Source: Kineococcus radiotolerans SRS30216 = ATCC BAA-149
Lineage (GTDB): Bacteria; Actinomycetota; Actinomycetes; Actinomycetales; Kineococcaceae
NCBI RefSeq assembly: GCF_000017305.1
Contig: NC_009664.2
Coordinates: 600,001-632,000 of the forward strand
Length of the DNA: 32,000 nucleotides
Direction of reading: 5' to 3'
The notes under the pieces are model-generated. The model saw only the letters and a list, made by a program, of their open reading frames with translations, was not told where the DNA came from and made no database searches. Positions 12,310 to 24,524 of the stretch are shown piece by piece (position 1 is the stretch's first letter; the number at the start of each line of letters is the position of its first letter). A program made the translations under genes and the position numbers.

Positions 12310-12752
12310 TCAGACGGACTCGCGGACCAGGTGCACGACCCGGGGCAGGACGTCGCGGGCGTGGTCCACGGTGGCGTCCGCCGCGGCCACAGCGGCCACA
12401 GCGGCCACAGCGAGGCGAGCACCGCCAGCAGCCAGGCGAGGGCCACGAACGTCCACCCCAGCCACGCCCGGTACGTGGCGGAGGCCAGGGCCAGGAAGGC
12501 GGCCGACCCGAGCAGCCCCAGGACGACGACGACCGCGGCCGCGACGGCCGGGACGTCGAGCAGGGGCTCCAGGCTCGCCGCCGCTCCCAGCAGCGCGAGC
12601 ACCGGTCCGAGGACGAGGACGACGGTGGCCACGACGAGAACGGTCCCGATCCCGGCGCGCACCAGGCGGGGCCGTCGTCCTCCCGCCCACGCGCGCGACC
12701 GGCCGGACCGGGAGGAGGGACGGAGCCCGGTGGGGCGCAGGGTGCGGATCAC
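12310..12752 (-). CDS. Asp23-cluster membrane protein (about 3 TM helices, AmaP/DUF-like) with an apparent -1 frame switch near 12380-12412
   Basis: GTG 12752 overlaps the Asp23 stop (GTGA). This frame encodes Arg-rich N-terminus plus TM helices (GIGTVLVVATVVLVLGPVLALLGAA, VPAVAAAVVVVLGLLGSAAFLAL, GWTFVALAWLLAVLASLWPLWPLWP). After the repeat, protein-like coding (ADATVDHARDVLPRVVHLVRESV*) continues in another frame and stops at 12310. The span is 443 nt, not a multiple of 3. A gene caller would probably report 12168..12752 instead. Confidence 0.5.
12385..12411. repeat. Perfect 9-bp tandem repeat GGCCACAGC x3
   Basis: Read directly at 12385-12393, 12394-12402 and 12403-12411. It encodes LWPLWPLWP in the upstream coding frame. 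Confidence 0.9.
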
Positions 12753-13234
12753 GGTTCCCCCCCCGCGGGCCCCGCCGGGGTCGCGGGACGCTCGACCCCG
12801 GACACCGCCAGGTGCACCTCGCTCACCTCGAGGTCGGTCATCCGCCGGACGGCGGCGGCGACCTCGGCGCGCACCCGGTCGGCCAGGGCCGCGACCGGGG
12901 TGCCGTACTCGACGGTGACGTCGAGGTCGACGGCGACCCGGCGGCACCCCACCGCGACGCGCACACCGGGCTCGGGCACCGTCTCGGGGACGGGGCGGCG
13001 CGCGACGGCGGCGGGCCGGGCGGTCGCGTCCCCGAGGGAGTGCACCCCCGGGACCGCGGCGGCGGCGAGCGCCACGATCCGGGCCACGACGGCGTCGGTC
13101 GTGGTGACCGCGCCGCGTGCGGCGGCGGGTTCCCGGGGGTCCCCGGCGCTGGGGGTCCCCCCGGCCCCGGGGGCGCCCGCGGCGGGTGTCCCGGGCTCGG
13201 GAGCGGTGGCGGGACGGTCGGGCTCGTCGGTCAC
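12749..13234 (-). CDS. Asp23/Gls24-family envelope stress protein
   Basis: Core sequence TTDAVVARIVALAAAAVPGVHSLG...VAVDLDVTVEYGTPVAALADRVRAEVAAAVRRMTDLEVSEVHLAV is typical of Asp23. GTG 13234 is preceded by GGGAGGAA; the track start at 13249 is the alternative. Confidence 0.8.
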   Translation of the reverse strand: MTDEPDRPATAPEPGTPAAGAPGAGGTPSAGDPREPAAARGAVTTTDAVVARIVALAAAAVPGVHSLGDATARPAAVARRPVPETVPEPGVRVAVGCRRVAVDLDVTVEYGTPVAALADRVRAEVAAAVRRMTDLEVSEVHLAVSGVERPATPAGPAGGEP

Positions 13235-13342
13235 GGGTTCCTCCCTCACGGGCCCGGCCGCGGGGTGCGGCCGGGCGTCGACGGACGAGGGGTTGGAGCA
13301 ACCCGTCCCCCGATCCTCACGCGCCGGGCGCTGTGGCGTGGA

Positions 13343-13867
13343 TCACAGCCGCGCTCTCGTGACGTCCCCGACGTGCACGTGCACCCGCGGCGCCGGACCC
13401 TCCGCGCCGACCGGGCCCAGCAGGCCCTCCACGGCCGTGGCGGTGAGGTCGAGGACGGTGCCGGCGACGGCGAGCACCGGTGTCCCGAACACCACCGCGA
13501 TCTGCACGGTGAGCACGTCGAGGCGGTCCTGGGCGTTGGTGGTGCAGCGGACGGCGGTGACCTCGACGCCGGGCACGGCGGCCAGCGCGGCCCGGACGCG
13601 GGCCACCAGCACGTCGCCGGCGACGACGTACTCCCCGCCGGGGTGCCGGGCCCGCAGGGGCGCGGAGGGCCGGTAGACCCGGCGGGCGTGGTCGAGGAGG
13701 TCGGCGCGCAGCGCCCGCCACCCGGAGGGGGTGTGCAGCCGCAGCGCGTCGGTGGCCCGGGCCAGGACGTGGAGCCCCCGCTCCGGGGCGGCCACGTCCC
13801 CCGGAGCCACCGGGGACGTGGGGTCCGGTGCGGGGGCTCGCGCCGCGTCGTCGGGTGTCGTCGTCAC
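13343..13867 (-). CDS. Asp23-like domain protein with a Pro/Ala-rich N-terminus
   Basis: 174 aa. The C-terminal half (VVAGDVLVARVRAALAAVPGVEVTAVRC...LTVQIAVVFGTPVLAVAGTVLDLTATAVEGLLG...VHVHVGDV) follows the Asp23 pattern. GTG 13867 overlaps the sigma-factor stop (GTGA). Confidence 0.6.
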   Translation of the reverse strand: MTTTPDDAARAPAPDPTSPVAPGDVAAPERGLHVLARATDALRLHTPSGWRALRADLLDHARRVYRPSAPLRARHPGGEYVVAGDVLVARVRAALAAVPGVEVTAVRCTTNAQDRLDVLTVQIAVVFGTPVLAVAGTVLDLTATAVEGLLGPVGAEGPAPRVHVHVGDVTRARL

Positions 13868-14583
13868 CGCCAGTCCTCCAGGGTCGTGGCCAGGGTGGTG
13901 CGGGACCGTTCGAGCAGCCCCCGCACCGCGGTGGGGCTGGTGCTCAGCACGGCGGCGATCTCCTCGTAGCTGAGGCCCTCGACCTCGCGCAGCAGCCAGG
14001 CGGAGCGCTGGCGCGGGGGCAGCAACTGCAGGGCCACCTCAAGGGCCTGGCGCAGGGCGGTCTCCACGCTCGACCGTTCCGGGTCCTCGCGCAAGTCGCG
14101 CAACCGGTCCTGCACCTCCTCCACCGGGACGTGGGGGCGGCTGCCGGACGCCGGCCAGCGGCGCAGCCGGGCGAACGCGGCGTGCCGGGCCAGGGTGAAC
14201 AGCCAGGTCCGCAGGGACGCGTCCCCGCGGAAGGCGGGCAGCCCGCGCCAGGCGGCCAGGAACGCGTCCTGCACGCAGTCCTCCACGTCGGAACCGGACA
14301 GCAGGTTGCGGGCGTAGCGCATCAACGCCGGGCCGTGGCGGTCCACGATGCGGGCGAAGGCGTCGCGGTCGCCCATCGCCGCCCACCGGGCGAGCGACGC
14401 GTCCGGAGCCTCGTCCGGGGTGTCGGGAAACCCCGCGGGAACGTCGGCCGGAACCTCCCCGGGAAACTCCGGGGAACCGTCGGGAACCGCATCGGCGGCA
14501 CCGGTTCCCGGAACGCGCGCGGAGCCCGCCGTCGCGCGGCGGTGAGGGTCCCGCTCACCACCCGTGTCCACATCCGCTGTCAC
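13864..14583 (-). CDS. ECF-type RNA polymerase sigma-70 factor with an N-terminal extension of about 60 aa
   Basis: Region 2 (DRDAFARIVDRHGPALMRYARNLL...DVEDCVQDAFLAAWRGLPAFRG...LRTWLFTLARH) and region 4 (LPPRQRSAWLLREVEGLSYEEIAAVLSTSPTAVRGLLERSR) are both present. The only in-frame starts upstream of region 2 are GTG 14583 and GTG 14571. ATG 14376 would truncate the conserved SLARWAA-GD lead-in. Confidence 0.85.
   Translation of the reverse strand: MTADVDTGGERDPHRRATAGSARVPGTGAADAVPDGSPEFPGEVPADVPAGFPDTPDEAPDASLARWAAMGDRDAFARIVDRHGPALMRYARNLLSGSDVEDCVQDAFLAAWRGLPAFRGDASLRTWLFTLARHAAFARLRRWPASGSRPHVPVEEVQDRLRDLREDPERSSVETALRQALEVALQLLPPRQRSAWLLREVEGLSYEEIAAVLSTSPTAVRGLLERSRTTLATTLEDWR
14413..14516. 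repeat. Degenerate tandem repeat of about 12 nt carrying GGGAA(C/A)/GTTCCC motifs inside the sigma N-terminal extension
   Basis: On the plus strand, GGGAAA/GGGAAC/CGGAAC start at 14425, 14437, 14449, 14461, 14472, 14482 and 14509, with an inverted GTTCCC at 14504. On the minus strand this encodes the (F/V)Px(E/D/G) repeat SPEFPGEVPADVPAGFPDTP using unusual T-ending codons. Confidence 0.7.
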
Positions 14584-14836
14584 GACGCGTGCTCCATCGC
14601 ATTGTCCGTCAAGTCATCGGGCTGAATGTCAGCACATTTCCGAAGCAATAGCACGTTCAACTATCCGGTCGTGAGAACCGTAAGAACGTTCCCGGGATTC
14701 GGTGACGGGTCCCACCGGGGAACCACCTCGACGAACGCCGCGAACGGGTTTCCGCGTGTTCCCCGCGTTACGGGACGGTCACCCCCGTCGCCGTCCGCGC
14801 CGCGGGGAACCACTGCTCTCCGCACGGGAACGGCGC

Positions 14837-14850
14837 GTGACGCACGTCAC
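14837..14850. promoter_or_regulatory. Candidate operator: palindrome GTGACG-CA-CGTCAC within direct repeats GGCGCGTGACG (14832-14842 and 14858-14868)
   Basis: Read directly from the sequence. It lies about 100 bp upstream of the Asp23 start in a 378-bp divergent intergenic region. No function has been demonstrated. Confidence 0.3.
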
Positions 14851-14961
14851 ACGACCGGGCGCGTGACGATCCGTCCCGTTCCCGCTCCAACCCCCCGTGA
14901 GAGCGAGGATCCGGCTGCAGCAGAGCGGTCGGGCGCCTCACCGGAGGATCCAGGAGGAACC

Positions 14962-15468
14962 GTGACCGACACCACCACCCGCACCGCGGCCACCGGCAGC
15001 GTTCCGGGCCGCACCGCCGGAAACGTCGACAGCCGGGTTCCCGAGCGTCAGCGGAACTCCGCCACCGGTTCGGGTCTGGTCACCGATCACGGCGGCACCA
15101 CCATCGCCGACACCGTCGTCTCCAAGATCGCCGGGATCGCGGCCCGCGACGTGTCTGGCGTCCACGCCCTCGGCGGCGGCGCCGCCCGTGCCGTCGGAAC
15201 CCTGCGCGAACGCATCCCCGGCGGCCGGGTGAACCACGCCCAGGGCGTCTCGGTCGAGGTGGGGGAACGGCAGACCGCCATCGACATCGAACTCGTCGCC
15301 CGGTACGGCGCCCCCATCGACCACCTCGCCACCGCGGTGCGGCGCAACGTCATTGCCTCGGTCGAGCGCATGACGGGCCTGGAGGTCACCGAGGTCAACC
15401 TCGAGGTCTCCGACGTCCACCTCCCGGAGGACGACCAGGACGAGAGGACGGCCCCGCGGGTGCGGTGA
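14962..15468 (+). CDS. Asp23/Gls24-family envelope stress protein
   Basis: The 168-aa product contains TTIADTVVSKIAGIAARDVSGVHALGG...VSVEVGERQTAIDIELVARYGAPIDHLATAVRRNVIASVERMTGLEVTEVNLEVSDVHL. GTG 14962 is preceded by CAGGAGGAA. Confidence 0.88.
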   Translation: MTDTTTRTAATGSVPGRTAGNVDSRVPERQRNSATGSGLVTDHGGTTIADTVVSKIAGIAARDVSGVHALGGGAARAVGTLRERIPGGRVNHAQGVSVEVGERQTAIDIELVARYGAPIDHLATAVRRNVIASVERMTGLEVTEVNLEVSDVHLPEDDQDERTAPRVR

Positions 15469-16172: not shown

Positions 16173-17444
16173 TCAGCCGGGGCCCGGCGCCCCGGCCCGC
16201 TCCCGCACCGCCGCGCGCACGATCCCCGTCGCCGCCTCGGCGACGTCGAGGTCGGTGCCGGCCCACAGCCGCTCCACCCAGGGCCCGGCGAAGAGGCCGA
16301 CCAGGGTGGGCGTCCCGTCGGCGGGCGTGGCGTCCAGCCACTCGCTGACCTCCCCCGCCCGCGGCCCGTGGACGCGGTAGTACCCCGAGGGGTGCCGCGG
16401 CCAGAACCCCCGCTCGAAGCGCAGCACCACCTTCTCCACCCGCCCCGCCCCCAGCCGCGACAGGGCGGCGCGGTGCGCGGCCGGCAGCGGGGGGACGAAC
16501 TCCACCGCGCCGCCGGCCAGGACCGGGACCGGGACGGTCACGACGACGGCGTCGACGGAGCAGCGGTGGCCGTCGCCGACCAGGGTCACCGCGTCCGCAG
16601 TCGTCTCCACCCGGCGCACCGGCCGCCCCAGCCGCACGTCGAGCCCGCGGGTCAGGTGCCGCACCAGCAGGCCGTACGAGCCGACGATCCACCGGTCGCC
16701 CTCCCCCACCCCCGCCTCCACGCCGTGGCGGGCGCTCAGCCACGACAGGGACGCTCCCGCGTCCAGGACCACCTCCGCGTCGACGAAGCGGCGCACCTCC
16801 TGCCGCGTCCACGGCTGCGGGGAGCGCAGCCACCGCGCCACGACGTGGCCGAGGGAGGTGCCCGGCGCCGCGGCCGCCGTGCGCCGCTCCAGCTCCCGGC
16901 GCAGCCGCGCGGCGTCGGGGGCGGCGACCGGCGGGCCGAGCACCAGGGGGTCGGTGAAGTCGGTGGCGACGGTCCGCAGCCCGATCCCCTCGCCCACCCG
17001 GGCCAGGACGTTGTCGTCGTACTGCTGCAGCCAGTTGGCGCCCAGGTCGAAGGAGCCGCCGCCCACCTCCACCGGCGCGGCGCGCCCGCCGGTGCGCTCG
17101 CGGGCCTCCCACACCTGCACCCGCGCCCCGCCCTCGACGAGCCGGCGCGCGGCGGCGAGCCCGGCGAAGCCGGCGCCCACGACGGCGACCCGGGTGAACC
17201 CCCGTCCCAGGGCCCAGTCGGCGGCCGCGACGCCCTGCTCGTGGGCGCCGTGGGTCATGCCCGCCCGGGTGGGGTGGGTCGCCTCACCGGCGATGCGCAG
17301 CCGGCCCGCCACGGGTGAGCCCAGCCGGACCCGGTCGGCGGGCGAGCCGTGGCGGCCGATGAGGCTCCAGGAGCCCCGCGACCACGGGTCCTGCCCCCAG
17401 CGCGAGACCGCGGAGGCGAACGGGCGGGTGGGCACGGCCGTCAC
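16173..17444 (-). CDS. FAD-dependent amine oxidase (PF01593-like), apparently circularly permuted
   Basis: 423 aa. Residues about 14-79 (SRWGQDPWSRGSWS...GRLRIAGEATHPTRAGMTHGAHEQGVAAADWAL) match the usual C-terminal FAD segment. They are followed by the N-terminal Rossmann motif RVAVVGAGFAGLAAARRLVEGGARVQVWEARERTGGR and the substrate domain. GTG 17444 lies 12 nt after the hydrolase stop. Confidence 0.8.
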   Translation of the reverse strand: MTAVPTRPFASAVSRWGQDPWSRGSWSLIGRHGSPADRVRLGSPVAGRLRIAGEATHPTRAGMTHGAHEQGVAAADWALGRGFTRVAVVGAGFAGLAAARRLVEGGARVQVWEARERTGGRAAPVEVGGGSFDLGANWLQQYDDNVLARVGEGIGLRTVATDFTDPLVLGPPVAAPDAARLRRELERRTAAAAPGTSLGHVVARWLRSPQPWTRQEVRRFVDAEVVLDAGASLSWLSARHGVEAGVGEGDRWIVGSYGLLVRHLTRGLDVRLGRPVRRVETTADAVTLVGDGHRCSVDAVVVTVPVPVLAGGAVEFVPPLPAAHRAALSRLGAGRVEKVVLRFERGFWPRHPSGYYRVHGPRAGEVSEWLDATPADGTPTLVGLFAGPWVERLWAGTDLDVAEAATGIVRAAVRERAGAPGPG

Positions 17445-17455
17445 CGCGGGCCCCT

Positions 17456-18634
17456 TCAGGCGTCCTCCCGCAGCGTGGTGGAGACGAACCGGCGCACGGC
17501 GGTCTCCCAGCGCTGCGGGTCCACGTTCCACTCCCGGGTGTGGCCGGCGGTGGAGCTCGGCACGTAGGTCACCAGGTCCGGCCGGGCCTGCGCGAGCCGG
17601 CGCGAGGGGCCGTCGGGGACGTAGTCGTCGGCGTCGGAGTGCAGCAGCAGCACCGGCAGGACGAGTTCCCCGGCGCGGCGCACCCAGTCCATGGGGCGCA
17701 GGTCCAGCGGCCCCTCGACCCCCACCAGCCGGCGGCCCAGCGGGTGGGCCAGCAGCCGCAACCCGTAGCGCCCCAGCCGGACCGGGATCCGGCGGCGACG
17801 GGCCTGGTGGTCCAGCACGTCGTACCAGTCGAGCACCGGGCCGTCGAGGACGAGGGCGGCGACCCGCCCGGCCAGCGGGGAGCGCGCCACCAGCTGCAGC
17901 AGGATCGCCCCGCCCATGGACCAGCCGACGAGCAGCACCCGGCGGGCGCCGGAGTCCAGCGCGTGCTGGACCACGGCCTCGACGTCGCGCCACTCGGTGT
18001 CGCCCAGGCCGTAGCGGCCCGCGGCCACCGCGGGCGCGTCGGCGTCGTTGCGGTAGCTCGGCACCAGGCACGGGATCCCCAGCTCGTGCAACACCGGCAG
18101 CGCGCGCAGCGCCTCCTCCCGCGTCGCGCCGCGGCCGTGGACGAGGACCGCCCACACCCCGCCGGGGACCGCGCCGGGCGCCGCCGCGGGGACGGACCAG
18201 CAGGGCAGCTCCCCGACCTCGCCGCTCACGGCGAGGTCGTCGTGGGCGAGGCCGAGCGCCGCCGTGGGGTTCCCGGCGTAGTAGTACTGGTTCCACCGCG
18301 CCGCCCCGGGGCGCGGCACCCCGGCGTCCACCCCGAGCAGCTCCCGGGTGACGCGCCCGTCGGTGACGTCGAGGACGTCACCGACGCGGAAGTGCCCGGC
18401 CCCGCCGTCGGTCCAGACCCCGTAGCGGCCCGGGACGACGGTGTCGGCGGTCTCGGTGAGCACCACCCGGCGCGGCCCGACCTGCAGCACCTCCAGGTCG
18501 TCGGGCTTGTCCCGGCGCGGGGTCACCACGGCGCGGGCGAAGCCGACGGCGACCCCGGTGAGGGCCGCCCCGGTGAGCGCCGCCGTCACCGTCGCGGTGG
18601 CCGCGGCCAGGGAGGCCACCCGGCGCCCCCTCAC
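17456..18634 (-). CDS. Alpha/beta-hydrolase-fold protein with an N-terminal membrane anchor
   Basis: Nucleophile elbow VLLVGWSMGGA, acid LLLHSDADDYVP and His STAGHTREW are present. N-terminal hydrophobic stretch ASLAAATATVTAALTGAALTGVAVGFA. GTG 18634 overlaps the upstream stop (GTGA). Confidence 0.8.
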   Translation of the reverse strand: MRGRRVASLAAATATVTAALTGAALTGVAVGFARAVVTPRRDKPDDLEVLQVGPRRVVLTETADTVVPGRYGVWTDGGAGHFRVGDVLDVTDGRVTRELLGVDAGVPRPGAARWNQYYYAGNPTAALGLAHDDLAVSGEVGELPCWSVPAAAPGAVPGGVWAVLVHGRGATREEALRALPVLHELGIPCLVPSYRNDADAPAVAAGRYGLGDTEWRDVEAVVQHALDSGARRVLLVGWSMGGAILLQLVARSPLAGRVAALVLDGPVLDWYDVLDHQARRRRIPVRLGRYGLRLLAHPLGRRLVGVEGPLDLRPMDWVRRAGELVLPVLLLHSDADDYVPDGPSRRLAQARPDLVTYVPSSTAGHTREWNVDPQRWETAVRRFVSTTLREDA

Positions 18635-19068
18635 CGGCCCGCCCGCCAGGCGGCGCGGACCAGCGGCAGTTGCAGCGGCAGCCGGGCGAGGGCGAGCGCC
18701 CGGCGCCGGGAGCCGGGCGGGGAGTCCAGGGCCATCTTCACGTTCGCCGGCCACACGGCGAGCAGGAACACCGCGGCCGCCCCGCCGGCGGCGCGACGGG
18801 TGGCGGGGACCGCCAGCCCGGCGGCCAGGGCGAGCTCGGCGAGGCCCGAGGCGAGGGTCCAGGTGCGGGGGCGGCCGGGCAGGGAGCGGGGCACGATCGC
18901 GTCGAAGCCCACGGGGCGGGCCAGGTGGGCGACCCCGGCGGCGGCGAGGAGCGCCGCCGTCGGCCGCCACCGCCCCCGTCCCTGCCCGCGTCCCCGCCCC
19001 TGCCCGCGCCGCGGGTGCGGCCCGCCGGTCCCGCGCCCGTCCGCGCGGCTGAGCCCTCGCCCGATCAC
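18631..19068 (-). CDS. Small DoxX-like integral membrane protein with an Arg/Gly-rich N-terminus
   Basis: The C-terminal part (AALLAAAGVAHLARPVGFDAIVPRSLPGRPRTWTLASGLAELALAAGLAVPATRRAAGGAAAVFLLAVWPANVKMAL) resembles the DoxX_2 family from memory. The start (GTG 19068) is uncertain. Confidence 0.55.
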   Translation of the reverse strand: MIGRGLSRADGRGTGGPHPRRGQGRGRGQGRGRWRPTAALLAAAGVAHLARPVGFDAIVPRSLPGRPRTWTLASGLAELALAAGLAVPATRRAAGGAAAVFLLAVWPANVKMALDSPPGSRRRALALARLPLQLPLVRAAWRAGR

Positions 19069-19128
19069 ACCGGCGATCCTGCCCGACGCCCCGGCGCCGC
19101 GTCCGCACGCCCCCGCTAGGGTCGGCGG

Positions 19129-19653
19129 GTGGATCCGAGCGCACCCGTGGACAGCTGGACCGTCGTCGTCCTCACCGAGGAGGCGTTCGGCGACGTCGAC
19201 GCCCGCAACGTGGCCGGCCTGCACGCCGACGCCCGGGCCGCCGGGGCCGAGGTGCGCCACCTGGTCCTGGTGCCCGTCGAGACCGGCCGCAGCCTGCTGG
19301 CCGGGGTCTTGGACCACCTGAGCCTGGGCGAGGTGCGCGCGGCGCTGGACGAGGTCCGCCACGGCCACCCCGACCCGTCCCGGGCCCGCGCCGAGGCCGA
19401 GGCGGCGCTGGCCGCGACCCTGGCGGCGCTGCGGGACCTGGGGCTGAGCGCCGAGGGCCGCACCACGGAGGGGGACCCGCTGCCGGCGGTGCGCGAGGCC
19501 CTCGCCACCGGCGCCGACGTCCGCGAGCTCGTCGTGGTGACCCGCCCGCACGCCGTGGAGGACACCTTCCACACCGACTGGGCCTCCCGGGCCCGCGACG
19601 CCCTCGGGGTGCCCGTCCTGCACGTCTACGCGGGCACCACCCGCCTCGGCTGA
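19129..19653 (+). CDS. Conserved hypothetical protein (USP-like alpha/beta pattern)
   Basis: 174-aa ORF with good codon bias and alternating beta-alpha pattern (WTVVVLTEE...[10 protein letters not shown]...[12 protein letters not shown]...VPVLHVYAG). The start is GTG 19129 or GTG 19147. Confidence 0.6.
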
Positions 19654-19693: not shown

Positions 19694-20143
19694 ATGACCG
19701 CAGACACGCCGCAGACCAGCCAGGGCCCGAGCACGAAAACCTACAACGTCACCAAGACCGACGCGGAGTGGCGCGCTGAACTGGACCCGATGGCCTACCA
19801 CGTGCTGCGTCAGGCCGGGACCGAGCGCCCCTTCACCGGCGAGTACGAGGACACCACCACCGAGGGCGTCTACGCCTGCCGCGCCTGCGGTGCGGAGCTG
19901 TTCACCAGCGCCGAGAAGTTCGCCTCGCACTGCGGGTGGCCGTCGTTCTTCGACCCCAAGGACTCCGCCGCGGTGGAGCTCCTCGTCGACGACAGCCTGG
20001 GGATGCGCCGCACCGAGGTGCGCTGCGCGAACTGCGGCTCCCACCTCGGCCACGTGTTCGAGGGCGAGGGCTACCCGACCCCCACCGACCAGCGGTACTG
20101 CATCAACTCGGTCAGCCTGAGCCTGCGGCCCACCTCGGCCTGA
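19694..20143 (+). CDS. msrB: Peptide-methionine (R)-S-oxide reductase
   Basis: Contains RPFTGEY, the zinc CxxC pairs ([21 protein letters not shown]), GWPSF and the catalytic RYCINS (TGC Cys codon). Confidence 0.92.
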
Positions 20144-20649: not shown

Positions 20650-21381
20650 TCAGGGCAGGGCGTCGACGAGGTCGGCCAGCGCCACCCGGGGACCGGTGAA
20701 GAACGGCACCTCCTCGCGCACGTGGCGCCGGGCCTCGGTGTCGCGCAGGTCGCGCATGAGGTCGACGATGCGGTGCAGCTCGTCGGCCTCGAAGGCGAGG
20801 ATCCACTCGTAGTCGCCCAGCGAGAACGCGGAGACGGTGTTGGCGCGGACGTCCTCGTAGGGGCGGGCCTTGAGGCCGTGGTCGCGCAGCATCTTCCGGC
20901 GCTCGTCGTCGGGCAGCAGGTACCACTCGTAGGAGCGGACGAAGGGGTAGACGGACACGTAGTCGCGGGCCCGCTCCCCGGACAGGAACGCCGGCACGTG
21001 GCCGCGGTTGAACTCCGCGGGCCGGTGCAGGCCCACGACCGACCAGACCGGCACCAGGTGCCGGCCCAGCCGCGTCCGGCGCAGCCGGCGGTAGGCCTCC
21101 TGGACGAGCTCGACGGTCGGCGCGTGCCACCAGAACATGAGGTCGGCGTCGGCGCGCAGGCCGGCGACGTCGTAGGACCCGCGCACGACCAGGCCCCGGC
21201 CGGTGAGCTCGTCGAGCAGGTCCTGGACCTCGCGGGTCAGGTCCGTGCGCTCGCCCTCGCCCAGGGGGCTCTCCACGGCGAAGACCGACCACATCGCGTA
21301 GGCGATGGTGCTGTTGATCTCGTCGACGCTGGGGGCCGGTGGCTGCTGCTCGGGGGACGGTTCGGTGTGCTGCTCGGTCAT
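20650..21381 (-). CDS. hemQ: Coproheme decarboxylase / hydrogen-peroxide-dependent heme synthase (chlorite-dismutase family)
   Basis: 243-aa product with [25 protein letters not shown] and [22 protein letters not shown]. Its ATG (21381-21379) overlaps the hemY stop (ATGA). Confidence 0.88.
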
Positions 21382-22826
21382 GCCCGCATCCTCCCCCAGG
21401 CCGGTGCGAGCTCCGCACGCACCTGCGCCGCCGCGCGCCGGGCGGCCCCGACGCAGGCCGGGATCCCGACCCCGTCCAGGACCGAGCCGCAGACGGCGAG
21501 CCGGCCCGCGGCCCCGACGGCCGCGCGCAGCCGCTCGACCCGGTCGAGGTGGCCCACGGCGTACTGCGGCAGGCCGTCCACCCAGCGCACCACGGCGTGC
21601 TCGACCGGGTGCAGGTCGCGTCCCAGCAGCCGGGAGGCGTCGGCGGTGGCCCAGCGCACCACGTCGGCGTCCTCGGCCCCCAGGGCCTCGGTCTCCCCCG
21701 CGCGTCCCAGCGAGACGCGGAGCACGGCGGTGCCCCCGGGCCGGTCCCCGCGCTGGTCCCCGACCCAGTCCCACTTGTTCCCCGACAGCGTCAGCGCCTT
21801 GGCGCGCAGGCCCTCCACCGCGGCGACGGCGGGCGGGACGAGCAGCCCCGAACCGGTCAGCCCGGACAGCTCCCCCGCCGGGACGGCGAGCGCGGCGATG
21901 ACCACGCTCGCGGTCTCGACCCCGCGCAGCTCGGCCGCGGCGGCGGGGACGGGTTCGGCCAGCAGCCGCGCCGCGGCGGGGGCGGGCACGGCGACGACGA
22001 CGGCGTCGGCGTGGCGGGAGCAGCGGGCGGTGTCGACGAGCCAGCCGTCGGGGCGGCGCTCCAGGCGGGTGACGGGGGTGGAGGTGGCGACCACGGCGCC
22101 GCGCTCGCGCAGCCGCTCGGCGAGGGTCCGCGGGAGGGTGGCCAGGCCGCCGCGCAGGCCCGCGAAGACGGGGGCGCTGGAGGCGGCGGGGGGTTCGGCG
22201 ATGGCGTGCAGGAGGGAACCGCCGCGCACGGCGTGCTGCCACAGGGCGGGGACGGTGGCGCGCAGGGACAGCTGCGCGGCGTGGCCGGCGTACACCCCGC
22301 CGAGGAGGGGTTCGACGAGGCGGTCGACGACGGCCTGCCCGACGCGGGCGGCGACGTAGTCGGCGACGGCGACGTCCTCGGTCAGCGGCGGGGCGGGCAG
22401 GTCCGGTTCGGCGCGCACGCGGGCCACCTCCGCGGGGGCGAGGAACCCCTCCACCGCGTCGGCGGAGCGCGGGACCCCCATGAGGGTGCCTGAGGGCAGC
22501 GGGTCGAGGCGGCCGGGGGAACGGACGCTCGCGCGGGCGGTGGCGGGGTGGACGAGGGCGTCGGCGAGACCGGCGTCGCGGACCAGGTCCACGCCCTCGG
22601 GGCGGCGGGCGAGCATCGACTCGGCGCCGACGTCGAGGACGACCCCGCCGACCTCGGCGCGCTGCAGGACGCCCCCGACGACGTCGGCGGCCTCGAGGAC
22701 CTCGACGGTGAACTCCCCGGAGCGGGTGAGCTCCCACGCGGCGGTGAGGCCGGAGATCCCGGCCCCCACGACGACCACGTGCGGGAGGGCGCGGGGGCGG
22801 GGCGGGGCGGGGGTCAGCTCCGCCAC
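21378..22826 (-). CDS. hemY: Protoporphyrinogen/coproporphyrinogen III oxidase (FAD)
   Basis: 482 aa with the N-terminal Rossmann motif [18 protein letters not shown]...[10 protein letters not shown]. It sits between hemE and hemQ, as in the coproporphyrin-dependent pathway of Actinobacteria. Confidence 0.85.
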
Positions 22827-23878
22827 GCGTGGACCTCCTCCACGACCCGGGCCAGGACGGCGGGGTCCGCGGTGGGCGGGACGCCGTGGCCGAGGTTCAC
22901 GACGTGCCCGCCCCCGGCGCGCTCGCCCTCGGCGAGGATCCGGTGCAGGTCCGCGCGCAGGACGTCCCAGGGGGCGAAGAGCAGGGCGGGGTCGAGGTTG
23001 CCCTGGACGGCGACGGGGCGTCCCGCGCCGGCCGCGCCGCGGGCGGCGCCGACGTCGAGGGGGACGCGGAAGTCCACGCCGAGGACGTCGACGCCGCCGT
23101 CGACGGCGGCCATCGCGCCGAGCAGCTCCCCGGTGCCGGTGCCGAAGTGCGTGCGCGGCACCCCCAGGTCGGACACCGCGGCCAGCGCGGCCGAGGAGTG
23201 CGGGGCGACGAGGCGCTCGTAGTCAGCCAGCGGCAGCGCGCCCACCCAGGAGTCGAAGAGCTGGACCGCGGAGGCGCCGGCGAGGACCTGGGCGCGCAGG
23301 AAGGTGCCGGCGATCTGGGCCAGGCGGGCGGCGAGGTCGTGCCACAGCTGCGGGTCGGCGTGCATCAGCGCTTTGGTGCGCAGCAGGTCCCGGGAGGGGC
23401 CGCCCTCGACGAGGTAGCTGGCGAGGGTGAAGGGGGCCCCGGCGAAGCCGATGAGCGGGACCCCGTCGCCGATGCCGGCGAGCTGCGCGGTGGTGAGCGC
23501 GACGGCGTCGGTGACGTGCTGGAGGGCGTCCAGGGACAGCTCCGGCAGGCGGTCGAGGTCGGCGCGGGTGCGGAAGGGCTCGGCGATGACGGGACCGGTG
23601 CCCGCGACGATCTCGACGCCGACGCCGGCGGCCTCGAGGGGGACCACGATGTCGGAGTAGAAGACCGCGGCGTCGACGTCGTAGCGGCGCACGGGCTGCA
23701 GGGTGATCTCCGCGACGAGCTCGGGGATCCGGCAGGACTCCAGCATCGTCGTGCCCGCCCGCGCCTCGCGGTACTCCGGCAGCGAGCGGCCGGCCTGGCG
23801 CATGAACCAGACGGGGGTGCGGCGCGGGGTGGTGCCCCCGCGGGCGGCGTGGAGGTAGGCGGAGTTCTCGAGGGGCAC
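22814..23878 (-). CDS. hemE: Uroporphyrinogen decarboxylase
   Basis: Contains [53 protein letters not shown] and VNLGHGV. GTG 23878 gives a canonical 354 aa. The track ORF extends upstream into non-homologous sequence. Confidence 0.9.
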
Positions 23879-23942
23879 GCGCCGATGCTCCCACGGCGTG
23901 GCTGACGCCCCCGCGGGGTCGGGGGTGCCTAGGCTCCCTGGC

Positions 23943-24524
23943 GTGAGCGCGCACCGGACCCCGGGAGCGCCCGGGGCTCCGCCGGCCTTCGAGGCCGCGG
24001 TGGCCGCGGTGCGCGCCGTCCGCCTGCGCTCGGAGATCGTGCTGAGCGAGGTCCCGGCGCCGGCGCGCATCGCGCCGTTCGCGGTGGCCGTGGCCGGGGA
24101 CGTGGTCGTCGACGGCGACGAGCTGGCGACCGGCCGCTTCATCCTGCTGCACGACCCGTCCCGGCCCGCGGAGTGGGGCGGGGACTTCCGGGTCGTCACC
24201 TACGCGCGCGCCGACCTCGAGGCGGAGCTGGGCGGGGACCCGATGCTGGGCCAGGTCGGCTGGTCGTGGCTGGAGGAGGGGCTGGCCACCAGCGGGGCCC
24301 TGGCCACCGGGGTGGGGGGCACCGTGACGCGGGTGCTGTCGGAGGGCTACGGCGCGCTGGCCGGGCGCCCGGCGTCGGTCGACGTGGAGCTGCGCGCCTC
24401 CTGGACCCCGGCCGACCCGGCCGACATCGCGGCGCACCTGCACGCGTGGGGCGTCCTGGTGTGCACGGTGGCGGGCCTGCCGCCGCTGCCCGAGGGCGTC
24501 CTGCCGATCGGCCGCACCCGCTGA
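23943..24524 (+). CDS. DUF3000-like conserved actinobacterial protein
   Basis: Contains PAFEAAVAAVRAVRLRSEIVLSEVPAPARIAPFAVAV...GRFILLHDP...FRVVTYARA. It is divergent from hemE, as in mycobacteria. The start is GTG 23943 or GTG 23898. Confidence 0.7.
   Translation: MSAHRTPGAPGAPPAFEAAVAAVRAVRLRSEIVLSEVPAPARIAPFAVAVAGDVVVDGDELATGRFILLHDPSRPAEWGGDFRVVTYARADLEAELGGDPMLGQVGWSWLEEGLATSGALATGVGGTVTRVLSEGYGALAGRPASVDVELRASWTPADPADIAAHLHAWGVLVCTVAGLPPLPEGVLPIGRTR

What the first reader, a model, noticed from the sequence alone, without database searches (positions are those of the whole stretch)
16173..17444. Circularly permuted flavin amine oxidase
Seen in sequence: the 423-aa ORF opens with VTAVPTRPFASAVSRWGQDPWSRGSWSLIGRHGSPADRVRLGSPVAGRLRIAGEATHPTRAGMTHGAHEQGVAAADWAL. 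That is the signature extreme C-terminal FAD-binding segment of PF01593 amine oxidases. For comparison, human MAO-B from memory reads W..EQYSGGCY...RIYFAGTETA..WSGYMEGAVEAGERAA. It is followed within about 5 residues by the canonical N-terminal beta-alpha-beta motif RVAVVGAGFAGLAAARRLVEGGARVQVWEARERTGGR. The ORF then stops (...GIVRAAVRERAGAPGPG*) exactly where canonical enzymes continue into the W..DP..GSYS segment. The frame is uninterrupted and G/C-ending codon bias is uniform across the junction (about 17195-17210). The GTG start sits 12 nt after the upstream hydrolase stop. Inference: this looks like an expressed permuted protein, consistent with a tandem duplication trimmed at both ends, rather than a broken gene. 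In this fold the N- and C-terminal segments pack together in the FAD domain, so a permutation is structurally plausible. I do not know of a described permuted member of this family.
Basis: partly seen in the sequence, partly recalled or inferred. Interest (0 to 1): 0.7.

Follow-up and report, generated by a model that had tools for sequence, protein, structure and literature searches.

The report
Naturally circularly permuted flavin amine oxidase
This Kineococcus gene encodes a flavin amine oxidase whose usual last segment comes first in the chain; it is an intact member of a widespread, conserved family with this rearranged order that I could not find described in the literature.

Summary
The minus-strand ORF 16173-17444 (423 aa; Kineococcus radiotolerans A6W8E0) matches Pfam PF01593 in swapped order. 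Residues 7-76 match profile positions 371-440 and residues 93-414 match positions 1-366. Moving the first 84 residues to the end in silico gives one collinear match to positions 1-440.

It is not an artefact or a remnant. About 190 protein clusters, and 71 species genomes, share the same order down to about 40% identity. They come from Micromonosporaceae, Kineosporiaceae, Acidimicrobiia, proteobacterial MAGs and eukaryote-like contigs. All FAD-binding motifs and the catalytic-type lysine K338 are conserved. AlphaFold gives one confident globule (pLDDT 93, pTM 0.91) whose core matches LSD2, LSD1 and maize polyamine oxidase.

A second permuted group carries Tat/lipoprotein-type leaders and is about 50% identical to canonical-order relatives. 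One such pair puts the cut exactly between "...LRTxYG" and "VPDP...W".

No solved structure has this order, and seven full-text searches found no paper describing it. The substrate is unknown. The query's clade has replaced the active-site His and an aromatic residue. Whether the permutation arose once or several times is unresolved.

Verdict: real, a new variant of a known enzyme kind, moderately interesting.

The parts
16173..17444 (-). Complete coding sequence of the permuted flavin amine oxidase (423 aa plus stop codon at 16173-16175). Identical to K. radiotolerans ABS03079.1 / WP_011981782.1 / UniProt A6W8E0.
17217..17426 (-). aa 7-76: the segment that is C-terminal in canonical enzymes. 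It contains W..DP..GSWS, the GEAT loop and the final FAD-domain helix.
   Evidence: Matches PF01593 positions 371-440 of 443 at E 4.7e-9. Aligns to LSD2 chain residues 703-770. pLDDT is 85-98.
17277..17288 (-). GEAT motif (G53 E54 A55 T56), the C-terminal-type FAD-contact motif.
   Evidence: G53, E54 and T56 are invariant in 41 family members.
17193..17216 (-). aa 77-84 (ALGRGFTR): the junction joining the old C-terminal helix to Rossmann strand beta1.
   Evidence: pLDDT is 98 across the junction. GE-to-GxGxxG spacing is 37 aa in 17 of 27 clade members.
17082..17192 (-). aa 85-121: Rossmann beta-alpha-beta with GxGxxG (G90-G95 at 17160-17177) and the EARxRxGGR motif.
   Evidence: PF13450 at aa 88-145, E 4.3e-15. 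V88, G90, G92, A94, G95, R115, R117, G119, G120 and R121 are invariant.
16203..17168 (-). aa 93-414: the core equivalent to PF01593 positions 1-366 (rest of the FAD domain plus the substrate domain). The chain ends where canonical enzymes re-enter the FAD domain.
17022..17042 (-). GANWLQQ (aa 135-141), the signature of the query's clade. Q140 and Q141 replace the His-Gly of 'WIHG' found in canonical relatives.
16431..16433 (-). K338 in GRVEKVVLRF, the lysine conserved across the polyamine oxidase/LSD clade.
   Evidence: Invariant in alignment A1. Aligned to LSD2 'IEKIALQF'. Lys in 28/29, 38/40 and 71/74 proteins of the three groups.
17451..17455 (-). RBS-like AGGGG, 6 nt upstream of the GTG start and directly after the stop codon of the upstream ORF.
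   Evidence: Read from the sequence.
17456..19144 (-). Upstream alpha/beta-hydrolase ORF, possibly co-transcribed. The pairing is not conserved in other genomes.
   Evidence: PF00561 and PF12146 match at aa 333-448. No shared synteny was found.

Best explanation
The gene encodes an intact FAD-dependent amine oxidase-type enzyme of the polyamine oxidase/LSD clade with a natural circular permutation.

**How the chain runs.** It starts with the segment that normally ends these enzymes: a beta strand, the W..DP..GSWS turn, the GEAT FAD-contact loop and the last FAD-domain helix. An eight-residue junction (aa 77-84) then leads straight into the Rossmann GxGxxG beta-alpha-beta. The chain ends after the helix that in canonical enzymes precedes re-entry into the FAD domain. 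The new termini therefore sit at the canonical crossover from the substrate domain back to the FAD domain.

**Status of each step.**
- Shown: the permuted order, its conservation across many lineages, and retention of all FAD motifs and of the lysine K338.
- Inferred: the first 80 residues occupy the canonical C-terminal position in three dimensions.
- Inferred: the protein binds FAD and oxidises a C-N bond of a still unknown, probably cationic, amine by hydride transfer to flavin N5, with reoxidation by O2.
- Inferred: the order arose by tandem duplication or fusion followed by loss of both outer ends.

**Localisation and active site.** The query's clade has no export leader, so it is probably cytoplasmic. 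Its active site is remodelled: Gln-Gln replaces His-Gly, and Arg/Gln replaces an aromatic residue. Its substrate may therefore differ from that of classical polyamine oxidases.
For: **Swapped alignment.** The order is swapped against Pfam and against LSD2.

**Conservation.** Homologues from 100% down to 44% identity all begin ..AVSRW.DPWSRGSWS..GEATHP..HGA.. followed by V.VVGAG. 71 species loci are collinear with the query. Of 267 collected proteins, 186 are permuted and 75 canonical.

**A clean permuted/canonical pair.** P0159 (permuted) and P0157 (canonical) share 48% identity over the core (134-477 against 40-381). The swapped segment (51-125 against 384-458) is 64% identical.

**Structure.** The AlphaFold model has pLDDT 93.1 and pTM 0.91, with the junction at pLDDT 98. 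Foldseek finds LSD2 at E 7e-21 with TMq 0.68 over about 366 columns, and maize polyamine oxidase at TMq 0.66. This is what a sequential aligner should give when 84 of 423 residues cannot be aligned in order.

**Coding integrity.** GC3 is uniform and there is no remnant second copy of the segment in the window.

**Junction.** The spacing at the junction equals the canonical C-terminal tail plus strand beta1.
Against: - No experiment shows expression, FAD binding or activity.
- The three-dimensional placement of the first 80 residues could not be measured.
- In the query's clade the His of 'WIHG' and the aromatic residue aligned to the LSD2 Phe are replaced. Classical polyamine oxidase chemistry is therefore not guaranteed.
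- No tandem-duplicated intermediate was found in related bacteria.
Confidence: 0.85

Rival explanations
1. The locus is a misassembly, or a rearranged and decaying remnant of a normal amine oxidase gene.
For: Only the unusual order itself.
Against: - An identical protein occurs on 5 contigs, including the 4.76 Mb chromosome.
- The same order is found in 71 species genomes from several phyla.
- Functional motifs are invariant.
- GC3 is uniform and no leftover segment lies downstream.
Confidence: 0.01
2. Translation really starts at the Rossmann motif. The upstream 80 codons are untranslated or form a separate small product, so the enzyme is simply truncated.
For: GTG codons exist near residue 86. 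The reading frame is open far upstream, to 18296.
Against: - The first 80 residues are conserved as protein, with invariant W16, P20, G24, G53, E54, T56 and H65.
- Homologues start 9-33 residues before the conserved Trp and never at the Rossmann motif.
- Without this segment the enzyme would lack an FAD-contact motif that is essential in this family.
- An RBS-like AGGGG precedes the GTG at 17444.
Confidence: 0.02
3. The protein is permuted and folded but is not an amine oxidase in the classical sense. It could be a dehydrogenase using another electron acceptor, an enzyme acting on a non-polyamine substrate, or a binding protein.
For: - In clade A the 'WIHG' His is Gln in 26 of 29 proteins.
- The position aligned to the LSD2 Phe is Gln, Arg or Met instead of the Tyr, His or Phe seen in canonical relatives.
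- No NCBIfam equivalog reaches its cutoff.
- No informative conserved neighbours were found.
Against: - The lysine K338 and all FAD motifs are retained.
- The closest sequence and structure relatives are all amine oxidases or demethylases.
- Many invariant polar and acidic residues lie outside the FAD motifs, which points to a specific active site.
Confidence: 0.12

Closest known systems
Polyamine oxidase / spermine oxidase / LSD1-LSD2 clade of flavin amine oxidases (PF01593). Solved examples are 4HSU and 4GU0 (LSD2), 2Z5U (LSD1), 1B37 (maize PAO), 7OXL (SMOX) and 1RSG (Fms1).
   Same: - Same fold for the 340-residue core (Foldseek E 7e-21 to 2e-17).
- Best sequence hits in the PDB (E 1e-58 with the family profile).
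- Same GxGxxG, RxGGR and GEAT FAD motifs and the same conserved lysine.
   Different: - The segment order is circularly permuted, whereas every solved relative has the Rossmann motif first.
- The query's clade has Gln-Gln instead of His-Gly after the conserved Trp, and lacks the aromatic residue near the flavin.
- It has no SWIRM, Tower or membrane-anchor additions.
Uncharacterised canonical-order bacterial 'flavin monoamine oxidase family' proteins, mostly with Tat/lipoprotein leaders (for example P0157 and P0353; Chloroflexota and others).
   Same: 36-41% identical to the query. Up to about 50% identical to the second permuted group. They share the same motifs and the same length.
   Different: Canonical order. 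Most carry an export leader in front of the Rossmann motif.
Natural circular permutations in other enzyme families, as generally described for DNA methyltransferases, transaldolases and saposin/swaposin (from my own knowledge).
   Same: The same kind of event: homologous proteins with cyclically shifted segment order, usually explained by duplication, fusion and end loss.
   Different: A different fold. I found no report of such a permutation for a flavin amine oxidase.

Membership tests
Flavin-containing amine oxidoreductase (Pfam PF01593) | Score above the Pfam gathering threshold | tested here: met
   159.6 bits against a cutoff of 19.8.
Flavin-containing amine oxidoreductase (Pfam PF01593) | Dinucleotide-binding beta-alpha-beta with GxGxxG, followed by the E..RxGGR motif | tested here: met
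   aa 85-121. PF13450 matches at E 4.3e-15. Residues are invariant in 41 sequences.
Flavin-containing amine oxidoreductase (Pfam PF01593) | Second FAD-contact segment (W..DP..GSYS ... GE-x-T ... helix) | tested here: met
   Present at aa 7-76, matching profile positions 371-440 at E 4.7e-9. It lies at the N-terminus rather than the C-terminus.
Flavin-containing amine oxidoreductase (Pfam PF01593) | Collinear segment order, with the Rossmann motif first and the GE-x-T segment last | tested here: not met
   Two stretches in swapped order. A single stretch results only after in-silico de-permutation.
Flavin-containing amine oxidoreductase (Pfam PF01593) | Two-domain amine oxidase fold | tested here: met
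   The model has pLDDT 93 and pTM 0.91. The core matches LSD2, LSD1 and PAO with probability 1.00. Placement of the first 80 residues was not measured directly.
Flavin-containing amine oxidoreductase (Pfam PF01593) | Binds FAD and oxidises an amine | not testable with these tools
   Needs purified protein.
Polyamine oxidase / LSD clade | Conserved lysine near flavin N5. It corresponds to LSD1 K661 and maize PAO K300; that numbering is from memory. | tested here: met
   K338 is invariant. It aligns to the Lys of LSD2 'IEKIALQF'. It is Lys in 137 of 143 proteins compared.
Polyamine oxidase / LSD clade | His in the G-A-x-W-I-H-G motif. It corresponds to PAOX H64, SMOX H82 and Fms1 H67; that numbering is from memory. 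| tested here: not met
   Q140 in the query. The position is Gln in 26 of 29 clade-A proteins and His in 63 of 74 canonical relatives.
Polyamine oxidase / LSD clade | Aromatic residue flanking the flavin in the GE-x-T...HGA segment. It is Phe in LSD2, and Tyr761 in LSD1 from memory. | tested here: not met
   R60 in the query. Clade A has Q14, R5 and M3 at this position. Canonical relatives have Y37, H20 and F9.

The most novel reading that the evidence does not exclude
This would be the first recognised natural circular permutation in the flavin amine oxidase (MAO/PAO/LSD) superfamily. The permutation may have arisen more than once. The query's cytoplasmic clade A and a Tat-exported clade B are not recovered as one group, and clade B is closer to canonical enzymes than to clade A. 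With its remodelled active site, clade A may also catalyse a reaction not yet known for this fold.
Probability: 0.3. Interest if true: 0.7.

Novelty: new variant of a known kind. Interest (0 to 1): 0.55.

Why it matters
The N-terminal Rossmann beta-alpha-beta motif is treated as a fixed landmark of FAD amine oxidases such as MAO, LSD1 and polyamine oxidases. Here a large natural family starts with the 'last' segment instead, and canonical-order relatives are only about 50% identical. This offers three things:

- **A natural test of chain connectivity.** It can show how connectivity affects folding, FAD insertion and Tat export in this fold.
- **Tolerated cut and fusion sites.** These are useful for engineering these enzymes as biosensors, split enzymes or domain insertions.
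- **A warning for annotation.** Pipelines that assume collinearity may split such proteins into two partial domain hits or flag them as fragments.

The query's clade is also an uncharacterised, strongly conserved enzyme family with an altered active site, and is worth a substrate screen.

Tried and rejected
**Local rearrangement.** I checked whether the permutation came from rearrangement with the second PF01593 gene in the window (21378-22826, minus strand). That gene is a distantly related protoporphyrinogen oxidase next to hemE, so it is not the source.

**Lost C-terminal segment.** I looked for a leftover C-terminal segment downstream or elsewhere in the window and found none.

**Function from gene neighbourhood.** Five loci were inspected by hand, and ORFs were clustered across about 75 loci. 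There is no family-wide neighbour. Only local synteny appears within Actinoplanes, plus a DUF3422 gene upstream in six alphaproteobacterial loci.

**One origin or several.** I built a neighbour-joining tree with 300 bootstraps on de-permuted HMM match columns.
- Clade A is solid (299/300).
- Strict monophyly of all permuted proteins is never recovered (0/300).
- A loose A+B grouping appears in 62/300 replicates.
- The sister of clade A is mostly permuted in 57% of replicates.
- A scan for residues shared by A and B against canonical proteins found none, while B and canonical proteins share 20 against A.

This remains unresolved and I make no claim of multiple origins.

**Literature.** Seven searches returned nothing relevant. 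Subscription-only papers are not covered.

Full report
**1. What is in the window**

The same frame stays open upstream to 18296, but that stretch overlaps the alpha/beta-hydrolase ORF 17456-19144 read in another frame.

The GTG at 17442-17444 follows the hydrolase TGA (17456-17458) after the 11-nt spacer AGGGGCCCGCG, which begins with an RBS-like AGGGG. A second GTG lies three codons downstream. It is used in the 420-aa annotation of another K. radiotolerans strain.

The window has 76% G+C. GC3 of the ORF is 0.93-1.00 in every 40-codon block, including the first two blocks and the junction.

The protein is identical to Kineococcus radiotolerans ABS03079.1 / WP_011981782.1 / UniProt A6W8E0. 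It is annotated only as 'FAD-dependent oxidoreductase / amine oxidase'.

**2. Is the order really permuted?**

Yes, on three lines of evidence.

- **Pfam, whole protein.** PF01593 matches in two stretches, the larger being aa 93-414 against profile positions 1-366 of 443.
- **Pfam, parts.** The first 84 residues alone match profile positions 371-440 at aa 7-76 (E 4.7e-9). When those 84 residues are moved to the C-terminus in silico, the match becomes a single stretch covering positions 1-440, and the score rises from 159.6 to 169.2 bits.
- **A solved structure.** Against LSD2, query 72-148 aligns to chain 323-402, query 247-414 to 522-696, and query 8-75 to 703-770.

No second copy of the C-terminal-type segment exists downstream or anywhere else in the window. 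A frameshifted normal C-terminus is therefore excluded.

**3. Is it a real gene?**

The first homology search returned 237 proteins. The 120 listed run from 100% to 44% identity, mostly with more than 90% collinear coverage.

Every sequence I read begins ..AVSRW.DPWSRGSWS...GEATHP..GMTHGA.EQG...W...G..V.VVGAG. Each ends soon after ...GPW...LW.G.D..VA.

In a 41-sequence alignment the invariant residues include:
- the GxGxxG and RxRxGGR motifs (V88, G90, G92, A94, G95, R115, R117, G119-R121);
- the GE-x-T motif (G53, E54, T56);
- H65, and the lysine K338 in GRVEKVVLRF;
- many residues outside the FAD motifs (N137, W138, Q140, Q141, E243, D250, W252, W348, E368, D371, W389, W394).

A scan of one genome per species found 71 loci, nearly all collinear with the query from residue 1-14 to about 380-420 (three are partial matches). 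They lie in Micromonosporaceae (Actinoplanes, Catenuloplanes, Catellatospora, Luedemannella, Winogradskya and others), Kineosporia, Acidimicrobiia MAGs, and alpha- and gammaproteobacterial MAGs.

A misassembly or a decaying remnant is excluded.

**4. Structure**

AlphaFold2 with the family alignment gives mean pLDDT 93.1 and pTM 0.91. The first 80 residues score 85-98 after the first ten, and the junction scores 98.

The predicted secondary-structure order of the first 80 residues is strand, strand, helix, strand, long helix, followed directly by Rossmann strand beta1 at aa 85-89. This is the pattern expected of the canonical C-terminal segment. That expectation comes from my knowledge of the fold, not from a measurement.

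Foldseek against the PDB finds LSD2 (4HSU, E 6.9e-21, TMq 0.68, 366 columns), LSD1 and maize polyamine oxidase (1B37, TMq 0.66). A sequential aligner cannot align 84 of the 423 residues, so TMq is capped near 0.8.

No solved structure has the permuted order. With the family profile, every PDB hit starts matching at profile position about 80 at its own Rossmann motif.

**5. The family is larger than the query's clade**

*Counts.* A profile search of 1.84 billion cluster representatives listed a mixture of single-stretch and two-stretch matches among its best 150. I split the profile into an 'N segment' (aa 5-80) and a 'core' (aa 85-415). On that basis, 186 of the 267 proteins collected to that point have the order N-core (permuted) and 75 have core-N (canonical). 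Five are fragments. One, P0141 (1449 aa), is three canonical units joined head to tail.

*A close permuted/canonical pair.* P0159 (permuted) against P0157 (canonical) shows 48% identity over the core (134-477 against 40-381) and 64% over the swapped segment (51-125 against 384-458). P0159 ends '...AMAVLRTIYG' exactly where P0157 continues '...AMAVLRTVYGRSVPDPTGVVVTRW'. P0159's swapped segment, which follows its export leader, begins 'VPDPEAWTITRW'. The query's own N-terminus, VTAVPTRPFASAVSRW, starts at the same motif.

*Two permuted groups.*
- **Clade A** contains the query and has 29 representatives. Its signatures are GANWLQQ, GSWS and GEATHP. It has no leader peptide, with a median of 14 residues before the conserved Trp.
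- **Group B** has 40 representatives. It keeps the canonical-type signatures GASWIHG and GSYS. Most members carry twin-arginine plus lipobox-like leaders, as do most canonical relatives. Group B is found mainly in Acidimicrobiia MAGs. Its canonical look-alikes at about 47-50% identity come from Chloroflexota and others, and all carry only generic names.

*Eukaryote-like members.* Clade A also includes eukaryote-like proteins with low-complexity insertions (P0149, P0134, P0143, P0138). One contig has 44% G+C and a UME-domain neighbour. It encodes the whole permuted protein in one frame.

**6. One origin or several?**

I built a neighbour-joining tree on 410 de-permuted match columns for 143 proteins.

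- Clade A is recovered in 299 of 300 bootstraps and sits on a long branch.
- Group B is embedded among canonical proteins on very short internal branches.
- All permuted proteins never form one strict group (0/300).
- A loose A+B grouping appears in 62/300 replicates.
- The sister of clade A is mostly permuted in 57% of replicates.
- No alignment column is shared by A and B against canonical proteins. Twenty are shared by B and canonical proteins against A.

The data fit either two independent permutations or one permutation followed by fast divergence of clade A. I leave this open.

**7. How it arose (inferred)**

The spacing from the GE(AT) motif to GxGxxG is 37 residues in most of clade A and 38-39 in most of group B. 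Canonical proteins have 29-34 residues from GE(AT) to their C-terminus, plus about 6 residues of strand beta1 before GxGxxG.

The old C-terminus is therefore joined almost directly to the old N-terminus, as expected from fusion of tandem copies followed by loss of the outer parts. Head-to-tail fused units do occur in nature (P0141), though in an unrelated animal-like sequence that may be a gene-model fusion. No tandem pair was seen next to two related bacterial genes.

**8. What it probably does**

The nearest characterised relatives by sequence and fold are LSD2, LSD1, spermine oxidase, Fms1, maize PAO and PAOX. All FAD motifs and the clade's conserved lysine are kept. The most likely activity is therefore FAD-dependent oxidation of a C-N bond in an amine. 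This is inferred.

Clade A has nonetheless changed two positions that are typical of polyamine oxidases.
- The His-Gly after the conserved Trp is Gln-Gln: Gln in 26 and 25 of 29 clade-A proteins, against His in 63 and Gly in 64 of 74 canonical relatives.
- The position aligned to the LSD2 Phe (LSD1 Tyr761, from memory) is Arg60 in the query and mostly Gln in the clade. Canonical relatives have Tyr, His or Phe there.

The substrate is therefore open.

Gene neighbourhoods give no family-wide clue. In Kineococcus the gene may be translationally coupled to the upstream hydrolase, but that pairing is not conserved.

**9. Novelty**

Seven full-text searches combined circular permutation with amine oxidase, polyamine oxidase, flavoenzyme, FAD or Rossmann, or used the organism name. 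None returned anything relevant. NCBIfam has no specific model, and no permuted structure is in the PDB. Subscription-only literature is not covered, so an existing description cannot be excluded.

I rate this a new variant of a known kind: a known enzyme fold and chemistry with a previously unremarked natural change of chain connectivity, present in a sizeable family.

**10. Verdict**

The feature is real and conserved. It is moderately interesting for protein evolution and flavoenzyme engineering. Function and the number of origins remain to be established.

Noticed in passing
window 21378-22826 (-) and 22814-24199 (-): A second, canonical-order PF01593 gene in the same window is a protoporphyrinogen oxidase (TIGR00562, 203.9 bits). 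It overlaps the start of hemE (uroporphyrinogen decarboxylase) by 13 nt. It is only distantly related to the permuted gene.
   Followed up: yes
window 17456-19144 (-): The alpha/beta-hydrolase ORF upstream is 562 codons long, but Pfam matches only aa 333-448. The first part is Arg/Pro/Gly-rich and the real start is unclear. Its stop lies 11 nt before the oxidase start.
   Followed up: partly
P0144-P0261 (group B); e.g. P0159 residues 1-50: A second group of permuted amine oxidases, mainly from Acidimicrobiia MAGs, carries twin-arginine plus lipobox-like leaders in front of the swapped segment. Canonical relatives carry similar leaders in front of the Rossmann motif.
   Followed up: partly
L076 7818-9461 (+); proteins P0149, P0134, P0143, P0138: Eukaryote-like members of the query's clade have long Asn/Gln/Thr-rich insertions. 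Contig L076 has 44% G+C and a UME-domain gene nearby. The called gene model P0143 is truncated at its N-terminus, but the full permuted protein is encoded in one frame.
   Followed up: partly
P0141 (1449 aa): An animal-like protein, or fused gene model, made of three canonical amine oxidase units head to tail. It illustrates the kind of intermediate from which a permuted reading window could be cut.
   Followed up: no
P0046, P0051, P0040, P0027, P0062 (Actinoplanes and metagenomes), after the motif TDFxxPL (query residue ~168): Some close homologues carry 50-200 aa Pro/Thr/Gly/Ser-rich low-complexity insertions at one surface position of the substrate domain.
   Followed up: no
L050 1670-2977 (+) and the same position in L052, L053, L055 and two more loci: In alphaproteobacterial (Anderseniella-like) MAGs a DUF3422 protein gene (E 3e-160) ends about 24 nt before the permuted oxidase gene. 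This is the only recurrent neighbour outside Actinoplanes.
   Followed up: partly
L080 6394-7863 (+): In one Acidimicrobiales genome a PLP-dependent decarboxylase gene (PF00282) lies directly downstream of a group-B permuted oxidase. This hints at a decarboxylase-to-amine-to-oxidase pairing, but it is a single case.
   Followed up: no
window 12749-15468: A cluster of two Asp23-family genes (12749-13249 on the minus strand, 14626-15468 on the plus strand) and an ECF-type sigma factor (13864-14583 on the minus strand). MsrB (SelR) lies at 19694-20143 on the plus strand. This is ordinary context.
   Followed up: no
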